64,000 nt of DNA, taken from Mobula hypostoma (taxonomy: Eukaryota). Numbering within the stretch: the stretch's first letter is position 1; every line of letters starts with the position of its first letter. The position numbers were made by a program, and so were the translations under genes. Under the pieces are notes generated by a model. That model did no database searches, had not been told where the DNA came from, and saw only the letters and a program-made list of their open reading frames with translations. This document shows, piece by piece, positions 4,256-62,497 of this stretch. The stretch is from positions 110,796,001 to 110,860,000 of the forward strand of contig NC_086107.1 of assembly GCF_963921235.1 (NCBI RefSeq), read 5' to 3'.

Positions 4256-4471
4256 AAAAGAGAAAAATCTCAGCAAGTCAGACAGCAACTATGGATGGAA
4301 ATAAACTCAACATTTTGGGCTGAGGATCCTGATGAAGGGTCTTGGCCCAAAACCTTGACTGTTTATCCCCTCCATAATGCAGCCGAACTTGTGGAGTTCC
4401 TCCAGCATATTTTGTGTGTTGATCTCACAGAAGTTGTTGGATTCTAGGGAGTTGACAGAATTTAGAGATAA

Positions 4472-25815: not shown

Positions 25816-26293
25816 CAAGCAACACACATCAAAGTTGCTGGTGAACGCAGCAGGCCAGGCAGCATCTCTCGGAAGAGGTACAGTCGACGTTTCGGGCCGA
25901 GACCCTTTGTCAGGACTAACTGAAGGAAGAGCTAGTAAGAGATTTGGAAGTGGGAGTGGGAGGGGGAGATCCAAAATGATAGGAGAAGACAGGAGGGGGA
26001 GGGATGGAGCCAAGAGCTGGACAGGTGATTGGCAAAAGGGATGTGAGAGGATCATGGGACAGGAGGCCCAGGGAGAAGCAAAAGGGGGAGGGGGGGAAAC
26101 CCAGAGGATGGGCAAGGGGTATAGTCAGAGGGACAGAGGGAGAAAAAGGAGAGAGAGAGAAAGAATGTGTGTATAAAAATAAATAACGGATGGGGTACGA
26201 GGGGGAGGTGGGGCATTAGCGGAAGTTAGAGACTCACCAGCAACTTTGATGTGTGTTGCTTGAATTTCCAGCATCTGCAGAATTCCTGTTGTT
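25816..26293 (-). mobile_element. Short PLE insertion with inverted terminal segment
   Basis: PLE 3' UTR and terminus on minus strand plus an inverted copy of the terminus at 26233-26293; TSD atagaattgc at 25806-25815 and 26294-26303. Confidence 0.85.
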
Positions 26294-26716: not shown

Positions 26717-27408
26717 TCAGAATCAGGTTTAATATCACCTGCATTAGTTGTGGAACTTGTTAACTTTACAGCAGCAGTACGATGCAATACATGATAAAAT
26801 AGAAAAAAAAAGAATTACATTAATTATATATATGTATATTAGATAGTTATATTAAAAAAAATTAAGAAGTAGTTAGTAGTGTTCAACGTCCATTGAGAGA
26901 TCTGACGGCCGAGGGGCAGAAGCTGTTCCTGATTCATTGAGTGTGTACCTCCTTCCCGATGGTAGCAATGAGAACAGGGGGTGTCCTGGGTGATGGGGGT
27001 CCGTAATGATGGTTGCTGCCTTTCTGAGGCATCGCTCCTTGAAGATGTTTTGGATAGTAAGGAGGCTGGTACCCATAATGGAGTTGACTAATTTTACCAG
27101 ACTCTGCAGTTGACTTTGATCCTGTGCAGTAGACCCCCAAACCCCCCATATCCATATGGTGATACAGCCAGTCAGAATCCTCTCCATGGTACATCTGTAG
27201 ATGTTTTTGAGGATTTTAGGTGACAAACCAAATCTCCTCGAACTCCAAATGAAATATAGCCACTGTCTTGCCTTCTTTATAGCTGCATCAACATGTTGGG
27301 TCCAGGGTAGATCCTCAGAGCTATTGACACCCAGGGACTTGAAGTATCTCACTCTCTCCACTTCTGACCCTTCTATGAGGATTGGTTTATGTTCCCTCAC
27401 CTTACCCT
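26717..27408 (-). mobile_element. Rex1/Babar-type LINE 3' fragment
   Basis: EVERVRYFKSLGV..EDLPWTQHVDAAIKKARQWLYFI...YRCTMERILTGCITIW...DPHHPGHPLFSLLPSGRRY. Confidence 0.9.
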
Positions 27409-28251
27409 AAGGAGGAGTCTCACCTCATGTTCTTGCCCACCCATCACCTCCCTCTGGTGCTCCTTCCTCATTTTTCATTCTTCCATGGCCTCTGTCTCTC
27501 TCAGCAATCATCTCCCTAGCTCTTTACGATTTCAATGTATGGGGAGGGGAGCAGAAGTGACAACACTATTGGTTCTATCTGAGGTATCATAATAGCCTTT
27601 TCTTTTTCTTTTCCTTGTTTTCTTTTAGTTTGGGTAGGTTAGTTTTTTTCTAAGGGGATATATTTTTTTTCTTTTTCTGTTTTTTTTACGATATTTTTGT
27701 ATTTTGTGTATACCCTTTATATATTTTATTGTTAATTGGTGAGATTTTGGGAGGTTTACTAACTATGTGTTACTTGACTATACTTTTATAATATAATTAT
27801 TATTAATTAATACAATCCCAATTGCTCTGTACTTATTTTTTGTAATGTGTATGATGTTGAAACTAATAAAAAGATTGGAAAAGAAAAAAGTTCTTTACTT
27901 CATCCATCCCTCCCGGTTTCATCGATCACCCTGATGCTTGTCTCTCCCCTGACCCCACCTTTTAAATTTACTCCTCAGCTTTTTTTCCTCCAGCCCTTCC
28001 GAAGGGTCTCGGCCCGAAATGTCGACTGTACTTTTTTCCGTAGATGCCGCCTGGCTTGCTGAGTTCCTCCAGCATTTCGTGTGTGTTGCTTGGGATTTTC
28101 AATGTCTTGCTTTGTTGTTGGCCTTTGGGGGTTATTGCTTCGTTTGGACACTGGAGGCTGTCTGAATGGTCCTGAATTCCCACATGCTCCAGGGTGTATT
28201 TGGGGGGGGCAGGGTTAGGGTGGGGGGGCTTGCCAACCCCCCTTTGCTTGG

Positions 28252-28458
28252 AAACACGAGGAATTCTGCAGATGCTGGAAATTCAAGCAGCACACATCAA
28301 AGTTGCTGGTGAACGCAGCAGGCCAGGCAGCATCTCCAGGAAGAGGTACAGTCAACGTTTCAGGCCGAGACCCTTCGTCAGGACTAACGTTGACTGTACC
28401 TCTTCCTAGAGATGCTGCCTGGCCTGCTGGGTTCACCAGCAACTTTGATGTGTGTTGC
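28252..28458. mobile_element. Fold-back PLE-derived element
   Basis: Two PLE terminal arms in inverted orientation; flanking direct repeat ctttgcttgg at 28242-28251 and 28465-28474. Confidence 0.85.
28349..28386 (-). ncRNA. Minimal type-I hammerhead ribozyme motif (GUU site)
   Basis: UAGUC-CUGACGA-AGGGUCUCGGCCU-GAAA-CGUU-GACUG. Confidence 0.7.
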
Positions 28459-30254
28459 TCCCCTCTTTGCTTGGTTGTTGTGGATCCTTGTCTGGTGAAA
28501 CTTAGTCCAAGTTCTTCTGTGTATCATAAGTGATTTCAGTTCTTCATGATTCTGTATCGTTTGCCTGAGTTCTCATTAGTTTGCTGGTTAAATTCTGTAA
28601 TAAATCTTGTGTGTTGTTTGAATTGCCAGAGTCTCTGGGATTCCTGCATTTGACTCTGCGAGTGACCCTGACAGTCGGTCACTGACGCAAATGGCACATT
28701 TCACTGGATGTTTCGGTGTTTCACTATACAATGTGACAAATAAAGTCTTTTAAGAGACTCTTAGATAGGTACATGGAGCTTAGAAAAATAGAGGGCTATG
28801 TGGTAGGGAAATTCTAGGTAGTTTGTAGAGTAGATTATGTGGTCGGCACAACATTGCGGGCCGAAGGGCCTGTAATGCGCTGTAGATTTCTATGTTTCTG
28901 TGTAAATAAAGCTAATCTTTGATCTTTCTTTACCTGCCCCTGATTTACCTGCCAGTTTGTACTTCTCCTCTCCCCCATCATCTTCCTATTCTGCCCCCTC
29001 CTTCGCCAGTCCTGATGAAGGGTCTCGGCTTGAAATGTTGGACTGTTTATTCCCCTCCATAGATGCTGCCTGACCTGCTGCGCTCCTCCACAACTCTCTG
29101 CAGCCCCTAACATTCCTGCAGGTTCGAATCTCCGTACCAGACCACGATGCAACCAGTCAGGATGCATCCATTTGCTACACTCGTACCGCAGCGACCATGG
29201 GAATGAGGAAAAGAATTATGGATAAAGGTGTCACTGAAACACAGTAACAAATAACAAAGCAGTTCATGCCAGCTCGTCATAATAAACATCAATGGTTTGG
29301 ATCAGGGAACTGAATGTAATATTTCTAAGGTTGCCAAGGACATAACACTGGCTGTAAGAGTGAGTTATATGGAGGATGTGATGAGGTTTCAAGGTGATTG
29401 GAACAAGTTGAGCAAGCAGGAAGATGTGCTAGATGCAGAATAATGAGGATAAATGTAGCGTTATCCACCACTGGGAACAAAAAAACTACAAGTTAGAATG
29501 TTAAGTGGTGATTTATTGAGAAATGTTTTGGTTCAATGGGAGCTGGTTGGCCTTGTGCGCCAAACACAACAACCTCTCGCTCAAGGTCTGCAAAAGCAAA
29601 GAGATGATTGTTGACTACAAGCGGTCCGTGAGCCCGTTCTCATTAGGGATAGGAGGTGGAGAGGGTCAGGAACTTGAAATGATCGTATCAGAGGGTCTGT
29701 CCTGGGATCAGCACATGACGGCGACCACAGAACAGGCACGGGGGCACGTTCATCGCACAGTTTTCACAGGTTTTTTTTGCACAGTTCGTCTTTTGCACAT
29801 TGGTTGCTTGTCAGTCTTTGTGTGTAGTTTTCCATTCATTTCTTTCTTCGACTGAGATTGCTCGCAAGCAATGCGGCATGCTGGGCGGCCCGCTATTAGA
29901 GCACCAGTGACATTTTTTTTTCATCACGTGCAATCGTGAACAATAGCCAGATCAGAAGTGCTGATCCAGTCAACCAGCTCCCAAAGAGAATTCTGACAGG
30001 CCAATCAGACGGTTCACTGCCACTCAGCGGTAACAGGCACAAGGGTCGCTAGCCCCTGTACCCCAGAAACACACCTGAGCGGTGTGGCGGAGGTACGTGC
30101 TATGCATGACCTGATCTGAAAGCATCATGTTGACTCATAACAGATCATGTTCACGGTGGGACAGCTTAGTCAAGGATGGGGTGATCAGCACAGATGGACA
30201 AATTATACCTCCACTACCCCTTGAGTTTGATTCCCACTGATGTCTGGGAGGAAT

Positions 30255-30845
30255 TTATAGGAAGAGGTACAGTCGACGTTTCAGGCCGAGACCCTTCATC
30301 AGGACTAACTGAAAGAAGAGATAATAAGAGATTTGAAAGCGGGAGGGGGAGGGGGAGATCCGAAATGATAGGAGAAGGCAGGAGGGGGAGGGATGGAGGT
30401 AGGAGCTGGAAAGTTGATTGGCAAAAGGGATACGAGGCTGGAGAAGGGAGAGGATCATGGGATTCTGCCAGAGAAAGCAGGATCTCCCAGTGGCCACACA
30501 TTTTAATTCCACGTCACATTCCCATGCTGATAGGTCTATCCACGGCCTCCTCTTCTGTCAAGATGAAGCCACACTCAGGTTGGAGGAACAACACCTTATA
30601 TTCCGTCTGGGTAGCCTCCAACCTGATGGCATGAACATTGACTTCTCAAACTTCCGCTAATGCCCCACCTCCCCCTCGTACCCCATCCATTATCTATCTA
30701 TCTATCTACCTATCTATCTATTTATTTATTTATTTTTCCCTTTTTCTCTCTCTTTTTTCTCCCTCTGTCCCTCTCACTATAACTCCTTGCTCATGCTCTG
30801 GGCTCCCCCCCCCATTTCTCCCTAGGCCTCCCATCCCACGATCCT
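30255..30845 (+). mobile_element. PLE: inverted terminal segment plus GIY-YIG C-terminus and 3' UTR
   Basis: LPVATHFNSTSHSHADRSIHGLLFCQDEATLRLEEQHLIFRLGSLQPDGMNIDFSNFR; inverted UTR piece at 30255-30460. Confidence 0.88.
30270..30307 (-). ncRNA. Minimal type-I hammerhead ribozyme motif (GUC site), intact core
   Basis: UAGUC-CUGAUGA-AGGGUCUCGGCCU-GAAA-CGUC-GACUG. Confidence 0.8.
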
Positions 30846-32520: not shown

Positions 32521-33621
32521 GGATTATAAGAGTAACAAGCAGTGACGTTCACAAGAGATTCTGCAGATGCGGGCAGTTCAGAGTAGCACACACAACATGC
32601 AGGAGAAACTCAACAGGTCAGGCAGCAACTCAGAGGCTGGAATATTCCTCTCCATAGACCTGCTGAGTTCCTCCAGCATTTTGTGCGTGTTGTTCAGTGG
32701 GTCTATCAGCCTTAGGAAGAACATTCTGGAGACAGCAAACAGCTTAATTAAAAAAGTAATTCCAGATTAAGCCCGTCTCAAAAACTAATTTATTTTAATT
32801 TCCCCAGAAATATCCTAGAACCCTGCAGAGATTAAATACTGAACCTTATGTGTGCTGCTGTAGCCCATCCAATTCAAGGTTCGACACCGCTGTTATAACG
32901 TGCCTGAGTTACTGTCGCCTTCCTGTCACATTCAACCAGTTTAACCATCTCCTCTCACCTCTCTCATTGTTGTTGTCATTCCTCTCCGCGCATTCACAGG
33001 TTCAAAGGTTCGAAAGTTAATTTTATATAAGGGTTTCTTCTTTTATGTTACTGTTAAGGTGAATAAAATGGCTTCTCTGTACTGTTAACTGCTGAGACAG
33101 TGGTTCTCTATAGCAGTATGTTTGGATTATAATTAGTGATAATGGGACTTGCATTCACTTGCTAACCAATTGGGATAGATGTTATTCTTTCTGTCTGTGT
33201 GAAAGCTGTTGGTTTGCACGGGCTTTGAGAAGAAGGCATGTGGAGGATGAAGAGAGAAGATGTGGCTTGAGGAGATGGTTGCCGGACTCGCTGGGCCTGG
33301 GCTCGGGGCAGCGGCCCAGGGGTTGACGACGAGAAAAGGGGGATCAGCGAAAGGGAATCCGTGAGCTCCAACGTTTGTGCACTGGACATGTTGATGAGAT
33401 TATTGGCGCCTTTTATTTGTTTTCCTTTTCTTTTGTTTCTCTACTAACCCCATACTTAAATATAAAATCTTAATCGTTTAACCGCACATTGTGGACTGAA
33501 TGTTATTTCAGCGTACTGATGTTACACAGGGGACACAACATGCAGCATCCACCCAAACAAGAGTGCTAAAATTTGGTCGGGGAGCGGGCGTCACCCCCGA
33601 GATCATGCCACTAGATGCAAT

Positions 33622-45800: not shown

Positions 45801-46461
45801 TTTAAAATATTTATTTATTTATACAGAGACATAGCCAGAGAAGGCCCTTAAGCAGCACAGCCCGCAACACACCAGTTCAACCCTAATCTAATCACGAGAC
45901 AATTTGCAAAGGCCTACTAACCTACTAACCGGTACGTCTTTGGAATGTGGGAGGAAACTGGAGCATGCGGAGGAAACCCTTGCATTTGCAGGGGACACCG
46001 GAATTGAACTCCGAACTCCGATGCCCCGATATAGCGTCATGCTAACCACTACGCTAATGTGGCGCTCCGGTACGAGGAGACGCCAGCCTCTTGAAGCTGC
46101 AGCAAAGGGCTAAGCAGTAAAAAAAAGAGTGAGATCAGAACTCAGACAGTAAATCAGGACAAAGTCATCTCACAACAAGCAGATCGGATCAAAGCTCTGC
46201 TGGACTACTGCACTGAGTCAGGAGTGATGGTGTACTGTTAACAGGAGGAGAAGACTCCAGGAGAAACATCGTTCTGAATGATGGTGCAGACCAGCACCAG
46301 AGAGATAAAATAAAGTCTGAAGGAATTTGTAGATGGAATTTACTGCAGACAATTGCAAAGTATTGCACTTTGGTCGGACCAACCAGAATAGGTCTTACAC
46401 AGTGAATGGTAGAGCATTGAGGAATGTGCTCGAACAAAGGGATCTGAGAATACAGGTACAT

Positions 46462-46687
46462 TTAAACGCAAACAACAGGAATTCTGCAGATGCTGGAAAT
46501 TCAAGCAACATACATCAAAGTTGCTGGTGAACGCAGCAGGCCAAGCAGCATCTATAGGAAGAGGTGCAGTCGACGTTTCAGGCCGAGATCCTTCGTCAGT
46601 CCTGACGAAGGGTCTCGGCCTGAAACGTCGACTGCACCTCTTCCTATAGATGCTGCTTGGCCTGCTGCGTTCACCAGCAACTTTGAT
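46462..46687. mobile_element. Near-perfect palindromic PLE-derived insertion
   Basis: Inverted repeat 46514-46688 centred near 46601; TSD gaatac(a/t)ggtacat at 46448-46461 and 46688-46701. Confidence 0.9.
46597..46634 (+). ncRNA. Minimal type-I hammerhead ribozyme motif (GUC site), intact core
   Basis: CAGUC-CUGACGA-AGGGUCUCGGCCU-GAAA-CGUC-GACUG; perfect stem I CAGUC/GACUG; predicted cut after 46629. Confidence 0.82.
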
Positions 46688-48046
46688 GAATACTGGTACA
46701 TAATGCATTGAAAGTGATGTAATAGATAGATAGGGTCGTAAAGAAAGCTTTTGGTATGTTGGCCTTCATAAATCAATGTATTGAGTACAGGAGATGGGAT
46801 GTTATGTTGAAGTTGTATAAGACATAGGTAAGGCCTAATCTGGAGTATTGTGTGAAGTTTTGGTCACCTACCTTCAGTGTCGCTCTAGTGTCTATGCGAG
46901 GAGTGGTGCCCCACACAGACTTCCAATCTGCGCCTTGTAAGGCATGAAAATGCCCGACGCAGACCTCTCATGGTCTGAGTCAACGTTCCCTCCCTCCCCT
47001 TCAGGAAAGATGAAAATAAGGTTGAAAGAGTACAGAGAAAATTTACAAGGATGTTGCCAGGTCTGGAGGACCTGAGTTATATGGAAAGATTGAATAGGTT
47101 AGGACATTATTCCTTGGAACACTGAAGATTGAGAGGAGATTTGACAGAGGAATATAAAATTACAGAGGGTAATTTTATAGATAGGGCAAATGCAAGCAGG
47201 CTTTTTCAACTGAAGTTGGGTGGGACTACAACTAGAGGTCATGGGTTAAGGGTGAAAGGTGAAAAGGTTAAGGGGAACATGAGGGGAAACTTGTTCATTC
47301 GGAGTGTGAGACTGTGGAATGAGCTGCCAGCACGAGTGGTGGAGGTGAGCTCGATTTCAACATTTAAGAGAAGTTTGAATAGGTACACAGATGGTAGAGG
47401 TATGGAGGACTATGGTCCTGGTGCACGTTGATGGGAGTAGGCAGTCTAAATGGTTTGGCATGGACTTGATGGGCCGAAGGGCCTGTTTCTGTGCCATACT
47501 TTCCTATGACTAAGCATTTGCAATCCCCTTCAATCAGAAGTAAGGAATTGGCGTCAGAATTAGAATAAGATTGATTACCGCTGACTTATTTGATGTGAAA
47601 TGTGTTATTTTGCGGCAGCAGTACAGAACAAAGCATGAAAATTACTATAAACTACAAAATAAATAAATAGTGCAAAAAAAGGGATAAAAGCTACATGAGT
47701 GTAATTTTGCTGAGCGTAAAGAGAAACACAAGAGTCTGCAGATGCTGAAATCAGAATCAGATTTACTATCACTGACCTATGATGATAAATGTGTTGTTTT
47801 GTGACAGCACCATATTGCAAATACATAGAAATCTAGCAACTACAAAATAGTGCAAAAAGAAGGAATAATGAGGTAGTGTTCATGGGTTCAATGTCCATTC
47901 AGAAATCTGATGGTGGAGGGGAAGAAGCTGTTCCTGAATCACTGAGTGTGGGTCTTCAGGCTCCTGTCCCTCCGCCCCAACGGTAGTAATGACAAGCGGG
48001 CATGTCCTGGGTGGTGAGGGTTCTAACGGATGGATACCACCTTCTT

Positions 48047-53426: not shown

Positions 53427-54290
53427 CTCAAGTCAAGTCAAGTCAAGTCACTTTTTATTGTCATTTCAACCATAACTGCTGGTACAGAACATAGTAAAAA
53501 CGAGACAACGTTTTCAGGACCATGGTGCTACATGAAACAACACAAAAACTACACTGAACTACGTAAGAAAAAAAACACCAAAACTACACTAGACTACAGA
53601 CCTACCCAGGACTGCATAAAGTGCACAAAACAGTGCAGGGACTACAATAAATAATAAACAAGACAATAGGCACAGTAGAAGGCAGTAGGTTGGTGTCAAG
53701 CCAGGATCTGGGTATTGAGGAGTCTGATGGCTTGGATGAAGGAACTGTTACATAGTCTGGTCGTGAGAGCCCGAATGCTTCAGTGCCTTTTGCCAGATGG
53801 CAGGAGGGAGAAGAGTTTGTATGAGGGGTGCGTGGGGTCCTTCATAAGGCTGTTTGCTTTACGGATGCAGCGTGTGGTGTAAATGTCTCTAATGGCGGGA
53901 AGAGAGACCCCGATGATCTTCTCAGCTGACCTCACTATCCGCTGCAGGGTCTTGCGATCCGAGACGGTGCAATTTCCGAACCAGGCCGTGATGCAGCTGC
54001 TCAGGATGCTCTCAATACAACCTCTGTAGAATGTGGTGATGATGGGGGGTGGGAGATGGACTTTTCTCAGCCTTCGCAGAAAGTAGAGACGCTGCTGGGC
54101 TTTCTGTGCTATGGAGCTGGTGTTGAGGGACCAAGTGAGATTCTCCACCTGGTGAACACCAAGAAATTTGGTGCTCTTACCAATCTCTATGGAGGAGTCG
54201 TCGATGTTCAGTGGAGAGTGGTCGCTCCGTGTCCTCTTGAAGTCAACGACCATCTCTTTTGTTTTGTTCACATTCAGAGACAGGTTGCTG
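53427..54290 (-). mobile_element. Rex1/Babar-type LINE 3' end with (TTGAC)n tail, inside a minus-strand CR1
   Basis: NKTKEMVVDFKR...TKFLGVH...LTWSLNTSSIAQKAQQRLYFLRRLRK...FYRGCIESILSSCITAWFG. Confidence 0.92.
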
Positions 54291-54967
54291 GCTATGATCT
54301 CCCCTCATTTTCTTCTCTTATTCAAAATTCAAAGTCCAAAGTAAATTTATTATCAAAGTATGCTTATGTCCTCAGACACTACTTTGAGGTTCATTTTCTT
54401 GTGGGCATTCACAGTAGAGCAAAACAATACAATAGAATCAGTGAAAATCTACATACAAACACTGACAAGAAGCCAATGTGCAGAAGAAGACGAACTGTGC
54501 AAATAATGAATCAATAATACTGAGAACATGAGTTGCGGAGGCCTTGAAAGTGAGCTTGTAGGTTGTGGAATCAGTTCAGTGTTGAGGGGAGTGAAGTTAT
54601 CCATGCTGGTTCAGGGGTTCAGGGGCCTGTCGGTAGAAGGTAGTAACTGTTCCTGAACCTGGTGGGGTGGTCCTGGCAACAACCTTGTGAATTTTCCCCG
54701 CAATCTTTCCATCTCTTTGTTATCTTTCCTGCAGGAGGGCGAGCAGAACTGCACACAATACCTGAACAGCCAGAGCTAGCATTGTAGGCATGTCCCGGAG
54801 GGGAAAGGACAGCTTATTGCATGTCAGTAGGTCACCCAAACCTCCCTGCCTAATCATCACCAATAGACAATGGTTTTGTGCCAGAAGGTCCTTGTGCTCC
54901 AGGGCTTCGCAGGTGGTGTTCTTGTAGAAGTCAGAAATGAGAACCTGTTGTGCTTCTTCACCAACAC

Positions 54968-55480: not shown

Positions 55481-55742
55481 CCTTGGTACTTACAGAGTTC
55501 TGGATACACGTAGGTCCTCACTGAATGGTTGCAAGGGATTGCAAAGCCTGCTGGAGTTCCGGTGTTAGTCAGCACTCAGAAGCATGGACGGCCTTTAGAA
55601 GCTGCGGTGTGGAAGAGGGTGTCTGATTGTTGACCGGCGCAGAAACAAGGGGTAACCCGTTCCTGAGTGGGCTGCCTTTACAGCAGGCAATTCCAGCTGA
55701 CCTGATGTCATGGACCATTCTTCAGGCTCAGCCTCTGCAGTC

Positions 55743-55746
55743 TCAC

Positions 55747-55780
<34 letters not shown>

Positions 55781-58330
55781 ACACACACGCACACACACAC
55801 ACACACTCACACACACACACACACACTCACACACACACACAAACACACACACACACACATACACACACAAACACAAACAGACACACACAAACACACACAC
55901 TCTCTCACACACACACACACACACATACACACACAAACACAAACACACACACACACACACACTCACACACACACTCACACAAACACACACACACAAACAC
56001 ACACTCACACACACACTCACACAAACACACACTCACACACACACTCACACACACACATACACACACACACTCACACACACACATACACACACACACTCAC
56101 ACAAACACACACTCACACACACACTCAAACACACACACACATACACACACAAACACAAACACGCACACACACACACATACACACACTCACACACACACTC
56201 ACACAAACACACACACACAAACACACACTCACACACACACTCACACACACACACTCACACACACACTCACACAAACACACACTCACACACACACTCACAC
56301 ACACACAAACACACACACACACACACTCACACAAACACACACACTCACAAACACACACTCACACACACACTCACACAAACACACACTCACACACACACTC
56401 ACACACACACACAAACACACACACACAAACACACACTCACACACTCACTCACACACACACACATACACACACTCACACACACACACACAAACACACACTC
56501 ACACAAACACACACTCACACACACACTCACACACACACACAAACACACACACAAACACACACTCAACACACACTCACACAAACACACACTCACACACTCA
56601 CACACACACACACAAACTCACACACACACTCACACACACACACTCACACACACAAACACAAACACACACACACACACTCACACACACTCACACACACACA
56701 CACTCACACACACACACTCACACACATACTCACACAAACACACACACACAAACACACACTCACACACACACACACACAAACTCACACACACACTCACACA
56801 CACACTCACACACACACAAACACAAACACACACACACACACACTCACACACACACTCACACACACACACACACTCACACACACACACACTCACACAAACA
56901 CACACTCACACACATACTCACACACACACATACACACACTCACACACACACACTCACACACATACTCACACACACACACAAACACACACACACACTCACA
57001 CACACACTCACACACACACACACTCACACACACACACTCACACAAACACACACTCACACACATACTCACACACACACATACACACACTCACACACACACT
57101 CACACAAACACACACTCACACACACACTCACACACACACAAACACACACACACACAAACACACACTCACACACACACTCACACAAACACACACACACTCA
57201 CACAAACACACACTCACACACACACTCACACACACACACAAACACACACACACAAACACACACTCACACACACACTCACACAAACACACACTCACACACT
57301 CACTCACACACACACACACAAACACACACTCACACACTCACACTCACTCACACACACACACACAAACACACACTCACACACACACACACTCACACACACA
57401 CTCACACACACACACAAACACACACACACAAACACACACTCACACACTCACTCACACACACACACATACACACACTCACACACACACACAAACACACACT
57501 CACACACACACACAAACACACACACACAAACACACACTCAACACACACTCACACAAACACACACTCACACACTCACACACACACACAAACTCACACACAC
57601 ACTCACACACACACACTCACACACACACACTCACACACACACAAACACAAACACACACACACACACTCACACACACACTCACACACACACACTCACACAC
57701 ACACACTCACACAAACACACACTCACACACATACTCACACAAACACACACACACAAACACACACTCACACACTCACACACACACACACAAACTCACACAC
57801 ACACTCACACACACACACTCACACACACACAAACACAAACACACACACACACACTCACACACACACACTCACACACATACTCACACACACACACATACAC
57901 ACACTCACACACACACTCACACAAACACACACTCACACACACACTCACACACACACAAACACACACACACACACAAACACACACTAACACACACACTCAC
58001 ACAAACACACACACACTCACACAAACACACACTCACACACACACTCACACACACACAAACACACACACACACAAACACACACTCACACACACACTCACAC
58101 AAACACACACTCACACACTCACTCACACACACACACAAACACACACTCACACACACACACTCACACTCACACACTCACTCACACACACACACACAAACAC
58201 ACACTCACAGACACACACTCACACTCACACACTCACACACACACTCACACACACACACTCACACACAAACACACACACACACACACACAAACAGATATGC
58301 ACAAACATGAACACACACACACACACACTT
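55743..58330. repeat. About 2.6-kb compound (CA)n tract with CT/AA/AT interruptions
   Basis: Directly visible; explains the 786-aa and 866-aa His/Thr ORFs. Confidence 0.97.
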
Positions 58331-59686
58331 ACACAATTGGGCTTGCACACACATACACATACACTGCTACACATATGCATTCATGCACACACTGACATAC
58401 ACGTATGCACACACATGCAAACACGGACGCACACATGCATTCATGTATGCACATAAACATAAGTGTACATGTGCACGCGCACACACACACACACACACGG
58501 GATCTTCCATCTTCCTCTGAGTCTGGTTCACCAAGGGGTGCCAGCACCTTTCACTTGCAGGCACTGGGGACGCCCCTCCCGTGTGAATGATAGCCTCAGG
58601 GCTGGGGAATACCTGGGGCGTGTGCTAAACAGGAGCTGCAAGGTTGGACTTGGCTGAGCCCTATTCTGTGGCCTGCCAAAACTTTTGGACAAAGAGCAAG
58701 CTGAAATGGGACGTTGAGGAGTCAAGCTAACCCAGGGTTCCCGTTAGAAGGTGTTGCAGGAGTGATGTGAATGTCCCTTTATCTGTCTCAGTGAGAATTT
58801 GGTTGGAGCTCACAGTGAGATTCACCTCTTTCAACTCTCTCCAACTCAGCACCAACCTCGTGGTTACCAGAGCTGAAGGCTCATTATCGTGACTGCACAC
58901 AACTAACAGTTGGTCTGTGTGTGGACATTTGATTGCATGTTCAGCAACACACATAATACTGCAGGGACTCTTCCCAAAATGGCTATTGCAAGGGAGCATA
59001 CTGTAATTTAAGGTAATTGGAGGGAAATACAGGCAGGATGTCAGAGGTAAGCTCTTTACTCAGAGAGTGGTGGGTGTGCAGGGACATTAAAGTAACTCTT
59101 GGATAGGTGCATAAATGAGTGAAAAAAAGGAGAACTATGTAGGAGGGAAGGGTTAGATTAATCTTAGAGTAAAATCGTGGGCTGAGGGCCTGTACTCTGT
59201 AATATACTATGTCCTGACCAGAACTTCACTCACCCCAACACTGATCTGATTCCACAAACTATGGACTCACTTTCAAGGACTGCAGCTCATCTTCTCCGTA
59301 TGTATGCATGTACAGTATGCATTTAAAAAAATTATTATAATTTGCACAGTTTGTCTTCTTTTGCACGTTGGTTGTTTATCAGTCTGTGTCTGCGTGTTGT
59401 CTTTCATTGATGCTATTGTACTTCCTTGTTCTACTGTGAATGCCTGCAAGAAAATGAATCTCACAGTAGTATCTGGCGACATAAAATTACATTGAACTTT
59501 GACCTTTGAACTACGTTCTCTGTCCTCACTCAATGAGCCCGGCAGCATCTATGGAGGGAAGTAAGCAGTCAACATTTTGGGCCGAGGCCCTTCATCAGCG
59601 CCGCCCAGATGAAGACTCCCGGTTTGAAGCGTTAACTGTTTCTTCCCCTTCGTAGATGCTGCTCGACCTGCTGAGTCCCTCTGGCA

Positions 59687-59725
<39 letters not shown>

Positions 59726-60089: not shown

Positions 60090-60612
60090 TATTCTGAGCA
60101 ACACGCACAAAACGCTGGAGGAAGACAGCAGGTCAGGCAACACGTACGGGAAATGAATATACAGTCGGCGATTTGGGCCGAGGCTCTTCATCCAGATTGG
60201 AAAGGAAGGGGGAAGACACGAGGATAAAAAGATGGGGGAGGAGGGGAAGGAGGACAAGCTATAGAAGATGATAGGTGGGTGGAGAAGTAAAGGGCTGGAG
60301 AAGAAGGAATCTGATAGGAGAGGAGAATGGACCATGGGAGAAAGGGAAGAAGGAGAGGCACCAGGGGGAGGTGATAAGCAGGTGAGGAGAAGATGTTAGA
60401 AGCCAGAGTGCAGGATAGAAGAAGGGGGAAAGGAGAGGGGAAAAATTACTAGAAGCAGAAATTGATGTTCATGCCATCGGGTTGGAGGCTACTTAAGCGG
60501 GGCGCAAGGTGTTGCTTGAGGGGCCTCATCATGGCAGAAGAGGAGGCCATGGACCAGCATGTCGGAATGGCAATGGGGATAGGAATTAACATGGTTGGCC
60601 ACCATGAATTTC
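60090..60612 (-). mobile_element. PLE 3' fragment
   Basis: Reverse strand RLSSLQPDGMNINFC followed by PLE UTR and terminus. Confidence 0.82.
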
Positions 60613-60689
60613 CATTTTTAGTGGTTGGAGCAGAGGTGCTTGGTATTCTGATCCCAGGAAGGTGTTGGATGATCCTCAGAGCTTCCCAC

Positions 60690-61378
60690 AATGCTTCTCA
60701 ACAAAGGAGCTGGTTGTGGATTACAGGAGGAATGGAAACGGGCTAACTCTTATTGACATCAATGGATCTGGGGCTGAGAGGGTGAACAGCTTCAAGTTTC
60801 TCTGCATCCACATCACCGAGAGCCTCACGTGGTCTGTACACACCAGCTGTGTGCTGAAAATGGCACAACTGCGCCTCTTTCACCTCAGATGGTTGAGGAA
60901 GTTTGGTATGGGCCCCCAAATCCCAAGAACTTTCTACAGGGGAACAACTGAGTGGCTGCATCACTGCCTGGTATGGGAACTGTACCTCCCTTAATGGCAG
61001 GACCCTGCAGGGAGTGGTGTGGACAGCCCAGCGCATCTGTAGTTGTGAACTTCCCATGATTCAGGACATTTAGAAGGACAGATGTGTAGGATCACTGGGG
61101 ACCCAAGCCATCCCAACCACAATCTATTCCAATTGCTACCATCCGGGAAACGGTACCGCAGCATAAAAGCCAGGACCAACAGGTTCCGGGACAGCTTCTT
61201 CCACCAGGCCATCAGACTAATGAACTCATGCTGATTTGAGTATACTGTTCCATTTATTATAAATTATTATAAATTACTATGATTGCACATGGCATATTTA
61301 GATGGAGACATAACATAAAGATTTTTACTCCTCATGTATGTGAAGGATGTAAGAAGTAAAGCCAATTTAATTCAATTC
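60690..61378 (+). mobile_element. Rex1/Babar-type LINE 3' fragment
   Basis: TKELVVDYRR...ERVNSFKFLCIHITESLTWSVH...AQLRLFHLRWLRKFGM. Confidence 0.88.
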
Positions 61379-62459
61379 ACCAGAGCAACCTCAGCACGCC
61401 AGTCATTTGATGAAAACTTACCGAATGCTCTGTATTGCTCTAACTCGTGCGAGGGCTTCTCCGGAGCTGATTCTGGTTAAATATTCATTGTGACATGTCA
61501 GTAATCAGATTTTAGAGTGGTAATCTGCTAATTTACTCCAATGAGGTAATTAATTGCAAAGCAAACCGATTCCAGATAATTTAATTTTCGATGGGGGTTG
61601 ATACTTTGAAATATTGTGAAATATGACCGTCTGATTCCCATCGGGGAATTGCGAGGCATCCGACTGAAAGTCCCTACAAAGGATTGTGAGGATCACTGGG
61701 CTTTCTCTTTCAGCCATCGGAAATATTTATCAGGTGTGCTGCATACACAGAGCCCTTAGCGTGGTCAAGAATCCCTCCTTTTTGTCCAACAACCTATTTG
61801 ACCCCCTTACCATCAGACAGGAGGTACCGTAGCATTAGGACAAGGACTGTAGGGATGGGAAACAGCTTCTCCCACCAGGCCCTAAGACTACTGAACTCCC
61901 TGCCACCACCTGGATCTTATCACTTGTGAAGCGCCAGTAGCATTACACTGTTCTTGCTCTTGAGCTTGTAAGTGCACCCTTTTACTAAATGTCAATCTTC
62001 TGGAATATATTTTATTATTTCTTAACTTATTTGTGGTAATATTACTTCATGCGTGAGTTATATGTTCTGCACCTTGCTCTGGAGGAACATTGTCCCATTT
62101 GGCAATATACATGAATGACAATAATCTTGAAGTTGAGTGTTCTACACTCTTCAACGTTTAACAATTTTCAGATCTGACTTTAATCTGCCTTGTCTGGTCA
62201 TAAAGAGAAGTATGGTAGAATCAATATGTTTAATGTTTCACTGATTTCATTGTTCTCCTGTAAATGCCTGCAAGAAAATGAATCTCAGGGTAGTATATGA
62301 TGACATTTCTGTACTTTGTTAATAAAATTCACTTTGAACTTTTAAAGAACAGGGAGTTCAGAATCAGAATCAGATTTATCACCACCATCTTATATGATGT
62401 GAAATCTTCTTATTCCCCTCCCTCCACCTTCTTATTCTGACTTCTTTCCCTGTCTTTTC

Positions 62460-62497
62460 CAGTCCTGATGAAGAGTCCGGGTCTGAAACGTTGACTG
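62460..62497 (+). ncRNA. Hammerhead ribozyme motif in a PLE terminus (weakened stem II)
   Basis: CAGUC-CUGAUGA-AGAGUCCGGGUCU-GAAA-CGUU-GACUG. Confidence 0.6.

What the first reader, a model, noticed from the sequence alone, without database searches (positions are those of the whole stretch)
46462..46687. Fold-back, non-coding, ribozyme-carrying mini-retroelement with its own TSD
Seen: a 226-bp insertion into a CR1, flanked by a 14-bp TSD with one mismatch. It consists of two Penelope termini in inverted orientation, forming a near-perfect palindrome of about 175 bp. The plus strand carries an intact hammerhead (46597-46634). The minus strand carries a second core (CUGACGA...GAAACGUC-GACUG) whose stem I is broken at the centre. 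Known: PLE pseudo-LTRs contain minimal hammerheads, and PLE insertions often have inverted 5' ends. Inference: this may be an extreme truncation product or a distinct mobile hairpin family. Transcription in either direction would give long dsRNA that masks the ribozyme and could be an ADAR or Dicer substrate.
Basis: partly seen in the sequence, partly recalled or inferred. Interest (0 to 1): 0.75.

Follow-up and report, generated by a model that had tools for sequence, protein, structure and literature searches.

The report
Short head-to-head Penelope retroelement insertion
This 226-base hairpin-shaped insert is two very short, back-to-back end pieces of an abundant Penelope-like jumping gene, a known by-product of how such elements insert, and most likely not a separate mobile hairpin family.

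Summary
In detail: a 226-bp insert in a decayed LINE, a 14-bp target duplication (1 mismatch), 86-bp arms (1 mismatch) around a 2-nt centre, and a minimal hammerhead at 46597-46634. The arms are ends of a Penelope-like element (PLE): a sibling carries the GIY-YIG end of the ORF, 91% identical to a ray protein. The window holds 19 family loci; 8 are head-to-head inversions, with 8 different junctions. No high-copy joint of the focal type appeared among the joints shown from four runs, a weak bound. Best reading: one integration in which both target strands primed short cDNAs, joined at a 2-nt overlap. The ribozyme lacks a helix III loop (dimer type), was uncut in the template RNA, and is buried by about 60 kcal/mol in a read-through hairpin. 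One lead remains: 5 of 8 inversions have an arm stopping at the hammerhead's 5' edge, a possible hot spot. dsRNA processing is untested. This scan found the same pattern before, elsewhere in this genome and in sharks.

The parts
46448..46461 (+). Left target-site duplication, 14 bp (keeps the ancestral letter at position 7; last 2 nt also match the element's continuation)
   Evidence: loose end of run X14
46462..46513 (-). Unpaired 'tail' of the longer arm (+59 to +110 from the predicted cut); outer end is a family-wide insertion end
   Evidence: 111-150 contigs per place with unrelated flanks before 46464, 46469 and 46470 in each of two DNA runs
46514..46599 (-). Paired part of the tailed arm, PLE end down to -27; gives the minus-strand hammerhead core with broken helix I
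46598..46601 (.). Inversion junction: 2-nt overlap (46598-46599) shared by both arms; the 2-nt centre (46600-46601) belongs to the tail-less arm
   Evidence: comparison with siblings
46598..46687 (+). Tail-less arm, PLE end from -31 to +58
   Evidence: 80-81 of 86 identical to siblings at 25816 and 28284
46597..46634 (+). Minimal type I hammerhead pattern: helix I 46597-46601/46630-46634, core 46602-46608, bulged A 46609, helix II 46610-46621 (closing pair G-U), core 46622-46625, loop-less palindromic helix III 46625-46628, predicted cut after 46629
   Evidence: sequence against the min-HHR description in PMC4209133; no Rfam hit
46688..46701 (+). Right target-site duplication (derived T at position 7)
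46320..47500 (+). Host: decayed 3' part of an AP-endonuclease/RT LINE (clade name CR1 recalled from the motif); borders approximate
   Evidence: translations with stops; window paralogue at 78-83% identity, whose longer relatives carry PF00078 and PF03372/PF14529
25806..26306 (.). Sibling young inverted insertion with own duplication (13 bp, 1 mismatch, or 10 bp exact); long tail-less arm reaches the ORF end (-346), short tailed arm starts at +42
28237..28474 (.). Sibling young inverted insertion with own duplication (15 bp, 1 mismatch); arms end at -34 and -5 with a 3-nt overlap
30253..30845 (.). Sibling inversion with nearly non-overlapping arms; 30463-30660 encodes the last 65 aa and stop of the PLE ORF (end of GIY-YIG); no duplication found
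59528..59698 (.). Older, decayed near-symmetric inversion (arms end at -27 and -28, 6-nt centre), outside the young subfamily

Best explanation
It is one integration product of a very abundant, Neptune-like endonuclease-bearing Penelope-like retroelement of a ray-like fish, in its shortest head-to-head form. Shown: both arms are ends of that element, one with and one without the tail, 3' ends outward, inside one 14-bp duplication; both arms run through the predicted ribozyme cut, so the template RNA was uncut there. Inferred: the GIY-YIG endonuclease nicked both strands 14 bp apart; each 3' end primed reverse transcription at one of the element's two internal start sites (+110 and about +58); both cDNAs stopped after about 140 and 90 nt at the 5' edge of the hammerhead and were joined at a 2-nt overlap. 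The near-perfect palindrome arises because the two stops nearly coincide. The copy is a dead end; its hammerhead is a passenger, dimer-dependent and buried in the hairpin. I put by-product of integration at about 0.87; within that, two primed cDNAs about twice as likely as all other routes together.
For: 8 of 19 family loci in the window are inversions, all 8 junctions differ, and the two young siblings with both ends have their own duplications. The exact focal centre occurs once in the window. Sibling 30253-30845 links the end to a GIY-YIG ORF end, 91% identical to P0001, which has the RT motif, linker cysteines and GIY-YIG; of 8 longer relatives scanned 7 hit both RVT_1 and GIY-YIG. Focal arms fall with the young siblings in a 100/99 branch. 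Letters shared by both arms are common subfamily letters (46544 A about 30%, 46566 G about 66% of laid depth in run X3). One folded strand cannot give the focal centre, which belongs to the arm lacking the tail, nor the siblings at 25816 and 30253. Published: inverted 5'-truncated copy with one-sided tail (PMC8557442; PMC3846280); both strands cut and extended, two internal start sites, uncut RNA as main template (PMC11167929); paired opposite-strand min-HHRs 100-700 bp apart (PMC4209133).
Against: No whole genome was held, so loci with the same junction were not counted. One search showed only 15 of 69 joints and 12 of 25 joints with inserted letters; 235 and 237 contigs that 'run over the ends' could not be assigned, and the focal locus's own junction contig was not shown. 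No contig bridged the flank-element border, so no empty allele was seen. 5 of 8 inversions stop at nearly the same place, which plain random truncation does not explain. The sibling at 28252 fits single-strand self-priming equally well. The tail (52 nt) is longer than the published 30-40 bp.
Confidence: 0.87

Rival explanations
1. A non-autonomous hairpin family that is transcribed and re-inserted as a unit by the PLE protein.
For: Clean duplication around the whole unit; both outer ends are PLE priming sites; arms 85 of 86 identical. Cis-acting pLTRs can mobilise unrelated sequence in trans (PMC3846280).
Against: 8 of 8 junctions differ; the two near-symmetric copies are not one clade (0% of 200 bootstrap trees); no focal joint among the best-supported rows, whose DNA depth tops out at 36 against about 5 for unique flank; an 86-bp duplex would hide the template.
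Confidence: 0.05
2. Self-primed fold-back: one cDNA (or antisense RNA) folded on itself and was copied back, as proposed for rotifer PLEs. This is a different route to the same by-product.
For: Proposed in PMC3846280 from palindromes at inverted junctions. Fits the sibling at 28252 (3-nt overlap, 26-nt loop, both arms share the changed cut-site letter).
Against: For the focal copy the centre belongs to the tail-less arm, whose copy cannot contain the tail; the turn would be a 2-bp stem with a 2-nt loop, and the predicted fold of that 3' end pairs with the helix I mirror instead. It needs an extra template switch or a later inversion of the centre.
Confidence: 0.2
3. A longer, asymmetric inverted insertion (like the one at 25816) later lost its centre by microhomology-mediated deletion.
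For: 2-nt overlap at the junction; such deletions are reported in PLE copies (PMC3846280).
Against: The copy looks young (1 mismatch in 86 between arms; 46511 T is about 20% of laid depth in organism A against 2.6% in B and 0.2% in C). Deletions usually break palindromes instead of perfecting them (own knowledge).
Confidence: 0.06
4. Assembly or library artefact (fold-back chimera).
For: Palindromes are a known chimera class (own knowledge); the junction was not seen in the rows shown.
Against: The sequence returns to the host LINE with a 14-bp duplication, has a one-sided tail and an arm mismatch; seven other inversions share the layout.
Confidence: 0.02

Closest known systems
Inverted (head-to-head) pLTR insertions of endonuclease-bearing Penelope-like elements, e.g. 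Pen2a_Av (PMC3846280) and the general layout in PMC8557442
   Same: Inverted 5'-truncated copy joined to a direct copy, one-sided tail, one duplication around the whole unit, palindrome at the junction.
   Different: No ORF left; both arms shorter than a pLTR; duplication 14 bp against 8-10 bp in the rotifer cases; tail 52 nt against 30-40 bp.
Minimal hammerheads (min-HHR) of metazoan PLEs (PMC4209133)
   Same: Type I core, 5-bp helix I, bulged base before helix II, loop-less palindromic helix III; opposite-strand pairs already noted there.
   Different: Closing pair of helix II is G-U here; the two cores are 2 nt apart, against 100-700 bp in that paper.
PAc, Poseidon element of Anolis (PMC11167929)
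   Same: Two internal priming sites downstream of the hammerhead; both target strands cut and extended; uncut RNA used as template.
   Different: This family has linker cysteines of the Neptune/Nematis type; that paper's text as read does not explain the inversion junction.
Non-LTR retrozymes (bioRxiv 10.64898/2026.07.22.740005)
   Same: Short, non-coding, PLE-derived, type I hammerhead.
   Different: Retrozymes are head-to-tail tandem units with a hammerhead in each; this is a single head-to-head unit.
Twin-priming 5' inversions of LINE-1 (recalled; no full text read)
   Same: Two primed cDNAs joined by microhomology inside one duplication; the sibling at 30253 has this layout.
   Different: Here both cDNAs copy the same stretch, which needs two pLTR copies or two RNAs.

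Membership tests
Endonuclease-bearing Penelope-like element (family of origin) | Single ORF with RT followed by C-terminal GIY-YIG endonuclease | tested here: met
   Met for the family, not for the insert itself, which has no ORF. Sibling ORF end 30463-30657 is 91% identical to P0001; P0001 has the RT motif and GIY-YIG at E 5e-4, below Pfam's cut-off; 7 of 8 longer relatives hit RVT_1 and GIY-YIG. No full-length ray copy was seen.
Endonuclease-bearing Penelope-like element (family of origin) | Hammerhead motif in the terminal repeat, downstream of the ORF stop | tested here: met
   ORF stop ends 330 nt upstream of the predicted cut in the sibling at 25816; motif aligned.
Endonuclease-bearing Penelope-like element (family of origin) | Inverted 5'-truncated copy, one-sided tail, target duplication | tested here: met
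   focal and both young siblings with intact ends.
Neptune clade of PLEs | Zn-finger-like cysteine motif between RT and EN (shared with Nematis) | tested here: met
   Linker cysteine motif in P0001-P0003 and all 8 longer relatives; definition from PMC8557442.
Neptune clade of PLEs | RT tree placement in Neptune and not Nematis | not tested
   No named reference sequences were at hand.
Minimal hammerhead ribozyme | Catalytic core boxes, helix I of 4-5 bp, palindromic helix III | tested here: met
   against PMC4209133.
Minimal hammerhead ribozyme | G10.1-C11.1 pair closing helix II | tested here: not met
   G-U at 46610/46621; G-U in 7 and G-C in 5 of 12 aligned copies.
Minimal hammerhead ribozyme | Compensatory changes in the helices | tested here: inconclusive
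   89.8% of 108 cells pair, 0 of 9 pairs change on both sides, 215 of 500 shuffles as high; 14 related rows only.
Minimal hammerhead ribozyme | Self-cleavage as a dimer | not testable with these tools
   Needs an assay; contigs cannot show RNA ends.
Propagating non-autonomous hairpin family | Same junction and same ends at many loci with different duplications | tested here: not met
   Within the window: 1 exact centre, 8 junctions in 8 inversions. Genome-wide only a weak bound.
Non-LTR retrozyme | Head-to-tail tandem units, each with a type I hammerhead | tested here: not met
   Arms are inverted and single; definition.
CR1 clade (host LINE) | AP-endonuclease plus RT ORF; clade by RT tree | tested here: inconclusive
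   Domains shown through relatives of the window paralogue; the clade name is recalled from the C-terminal motif, no tree made.

The most novel reading that the evidence does not exclude
The hammerhead's 5' edge is a fixed stop for PLE reverse transcription, so near-identical mini-palindromes are built anew many times. In the boldest form the uncut ribozyme works as a clasp: two PLE RNAs pair through the palindromic helix III, each is primed from one target strand, and both cDNAs halt at helix I. That would give the dimer-type hammerhead a structural job in integration and explain head-to-head PLE insertions. A transcription start or 3' splice site at the same place are the plainer alternatives. 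Basis: 7 of 16 junction arms, in 5 of 8 inversions of different ages, end 26-34 nt upstream of the cut.
Probability: 0.15. Interest if true: 0.65.

Novelty: new member of a known kind. Interest (0 to 1): 0.2.

Why it matters
As it stands, little: it is a tidy example of a published insertion pattern. Its value is as data. How PLEs make inverted junctions is still open (PMC8557442), and this genome has a very large number of copies (about 33,000 contigs laid per DNA run), so mapping all junctions would test two-primer against self-priming models and the hot spot at the hammerhead. A propagating ribozyme-bearing hairpin would be a new kind of non-autonomous element, but the evidence here points away from it.

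Tried and rejected
Whole genome: none held. Rfam: no hammerhead family at E up to 1 in the window or up to 10 in 46590-46700; the mir-3926 match (47.8 bits, gathering 82) reflects the hairpin only. Pattern scans for more loci: metagenomes 0 hits; a second, shorter pattern gave 119 loci, all chance matches of at most 24 nt; viral contigs 0; prokaryote genomes 0. Sequencing runs: no RNA holder listed; X9 is only guessed to be RNA, so nothing is concluded on expression. Empty allele in organism B: no contig shown bridges the border. Idea that the arms were homogenised after insertion: not needed, the shared letters are common subfamily letters. Pfam on the 65-aa ORF end alone: no meaningful hit; on 27 of the 62 listed window frames: no PLE or LINE core domain. 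One search had a misplaced bracket and is replaced. The dimer energy is not used. Target duplications for the older inversions and the copy at 30253 were sought and not convincingly found (not sought for 4268-4426). Luense et al. on dimer cleavage was not held; only its title was seen. Literature searches listed no paper whose title or abstract start describes a propagating PLE hairpin family or this ray family; only listings were seen for most, Repbase and Dfam were not available and no supplements were read, so absence from print is not established.

Full report
Observation. The insert 46462-46687 is flanked by 14-bp direct repeats with one mismatch. A paralogue of the host LINE at 14075-14310 carries this target once, with the left copy's letter at the mismatch, so the repeat is a true duplication and the right copy bears the change. 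The arms 46514-46599 and 46602-46687 pair at 85 of 86 positions around a 2-nt centre; the fold is -185 kcal/mol, z -25. The left arm has a further 52 unpaired bases. It has no helix III loop, and helix II closes with G-U, where PMC4209133 (parts 1-2 of 4 read) names G10.1-C11.1 as highly conserved. Its outermost helix I base is supplied by the other arm. Rfam gives no hammerhead hit, and 14 aligned window copies show no compensatory change, so the ribozyme call rests on the match to the published description.

Family. A profile built from 14 window copies gave 26 hits, which group into 19 loci; the 14 match by construction. The sibling at 30253-30845 carries the last 65 codons of an ORF followed by the 3' region that leads into the hammerhead. 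That peptide is 91% identical to P0001, and 10 of its 11 hits are named from rays or a skate. P0001 has the RT motif, a cysteine linker and GIY-YIG (E 5e-4, under the Pfam cut-off). Of 8 longer relatives scanned from the best 150 listed, 7 hit both RVT_1 and GIY-YIG and all 8 have the linker cysteines. This is an endonuclease-bearing PLE of Neptune/Nematis type by the definition in PMC8557442 (passages); no tree was made. The host is an AP-endonuclease/RT LINE; the name CR1 is recalled. Laying 4 of the 24 listed runs on the left flank and left arm gave 32,827, 33,132, 2,648 and 2,429 contigs; summed depth on the arm was 4.8-6.1 million in X3 against 4.9 on unique flank, which is no copy number but shows a very large family. 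At the tail end, 111-150 contigs per place lead into unrelated flanks. The letter at 46511 makes up about 20% of laid depth in organism A, 2.6% in B and 0.2% in C, so the copy belongs to a subfamily that grew in A's lineage (figures biased by the 88% filter).

Is it a propagating hairpin? Eight of the 19 loci are head-to-head inversions. Their junction ends, counted from the predicted cut, are: 434-752, -120 or beyond and -26; 4268-4426, about -15 (by eye) and -29; 25816-26293, -346 and +42; 28252-28459, -34 and -5; 30253-30845, about -187 (by eye; aligned to -156) and inside the ORF; 32555-32697, +21 and +34; focal, -27 and -31; 59528-59698, -27 and -28. All eight differ. The two young siblings with intact ends have their own 13-15 bp duplications. 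The exact focal centre occurs once in the window. In a tree of 18 arms (two short arms left out), the focal arms sit with the young siblings at 100/99 support, and the two near-symmetric copies never form one group. In the read data, none of the joints shown is the focal one, and the best-supported DNA joints reach depth 36 at most. This bound is weak: 54 of 69 and 13 of 25 rows were hidden, 235 and 237 contigs running over the ends could not be assigned (in X14 the 43 such contigs nearly equal the 42 with the normal continuation), and the focal junction's own contig was not shown. No whole genome was held, and scans of other collections gave no true relatives.

Mechanism. Shown: both arms have their 3' ends outward, one with and one without the tail, and both cross the predicted cut, so the template was not cleaved there. 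Published: the Anolis PLE protein cuts and extends both target strands, starts at two internal sites separated by the tail, uses mainly uncut RNA and is predicted to be a dimer (PMC11167929, parts 1-2 of 4 read). An inverted truncated copy with a one-sided tail is the usual PLE layout (PMC8557442; PMC3846280, passages; PMC2377424, passages; PMC8969392, passages), and opposite-strand pairs of minimal hammerheads were noted in 2014. Inferred: nicks 14 bp apart, two cDNAs of about 140 and 90 nt, joined at a 2-nt overlap. Self-priming, proposed in PMC3846280, fits the sibling at 28252 but not the focal copy without an extra step: the centre belongs to the arm that lacks the tail, the turn would be a 2-bp stem with a 2-nt loop, and that 3' end is predicted to pair elsewhere. 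It also fails for 25816 and 30253. Two primers cover all four; the LINE-1 twin-priming model behind this is recalled, not read (one search gave listings only).

Ribozyme and dsRNA. Forcing the hammerhead fold in the 226-nt RNA costs about 60 kcal/mol (-124.8 against -185), and apart from two bases at the hairpin loop the core is paired more than 99% of the time on either strand. A single minimal motif did not cleave in PMC4209133. So cleavage from this locus is unlikely. A read-through RNA would form an 86-bp duplex, a plausible ADAR or Dicer substrate (own knowledge), but no RNA run was on record and contigs cannot show ends or edits.

Open lead. Seven of 16 junction arms, in 5 of 8 inversions, end 26-34 nt upstream of the cut. 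Under an assumed geometric truncation the chance is 1e-4 to 3e-3 after allowing 40 bands; the band was chosen after the fact, old ends are blurred and the null is assumed, so this is suggestive only. The place is the 5' strand of helix I and looks like a splice acceptor in 7 of 8 copies viewed; in Drosophila virilis the intron ends at helix I. A hot spot would make repeated junctions a poor test for propagation.

Comparison and verdict. It works like, and by the tested features is, a severely shortened inverted PLE insertion. It is not a tandem retrozyme (bioRxiv 10.64898/2026.07.22.740005, part 1 of 5 and passages). Six literature searches listed nothing on a propagating PLE hairpin; Repbase, Dfam and supplements were not seen. 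Earlier notes of this scan on this genome and on sharks reached the same reading; they are unchecked and not counted as support. New member of a known kind; interest 0.2.

Noticed in passing
window 46871-47004: A second insert of about 120 bp interrupts the same LINE, apparently between 7-bp direct repeats at 46871-46877 and 46998-47004 (read by eye; the LINE frame resumes after it).
   Followed up: no
window 46694, 25816, 28464: In all 3 young duplications the tail-less copy's letter at the single mismatch equals the letter the element would have at that offset (by eye). The ancestral letter is known only for the focal copy. May be chance or primer-template repair.
   Followed up: partly
window 46597-46601 and copies at 25905-25945, 30295-30335, 20872-20912, 28980-29020, 62432-62472, 550-590, 27964-28004: A pyrimidine tract ending in AG precedes or overlaps helix I, like a 3' splice site; the focal tail-less arm begins at that AG. 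The whole 3' region is pyrimidine-rich, so this is weak.
   Followed up: partly
window 46462-46599 (-): One frame is open through the hammerhead and the tail (45 codons), as expected if the pLTR holds the start of the ORF.
   Followed up: no
window 30253-30845: Inversion with nearly non-overlapping arms, the layout of twin priming on one RNA; its tail end is missing and no duplication was found.
   Followed up: partly
proteins P0003, P0004, P0007, P0009, P0010: Annotated ray and skate host proteins (kinase-domain, receptor, mucin and others) contain the PLE ORF end: gene-model artefacts or exonisation.
   Followed up: no
window 26873-27406, 53780-54304, 60608-60994: Frames hit Pfam ALKBH8_N (PF09004), probably ends of another LINE family (own knowledge).
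   Followed up: no
window 16112-18783 and 55627-58456: Long frames open in several registers, probably tandem repeats.
   Followed up: no
joint 46599 to 46513 in runs X3 and X6 (table 5c): One joint that starts at the same helix I edge is present in both organisms (depth 32 and 10); its kind is not given.
   Followed up: no
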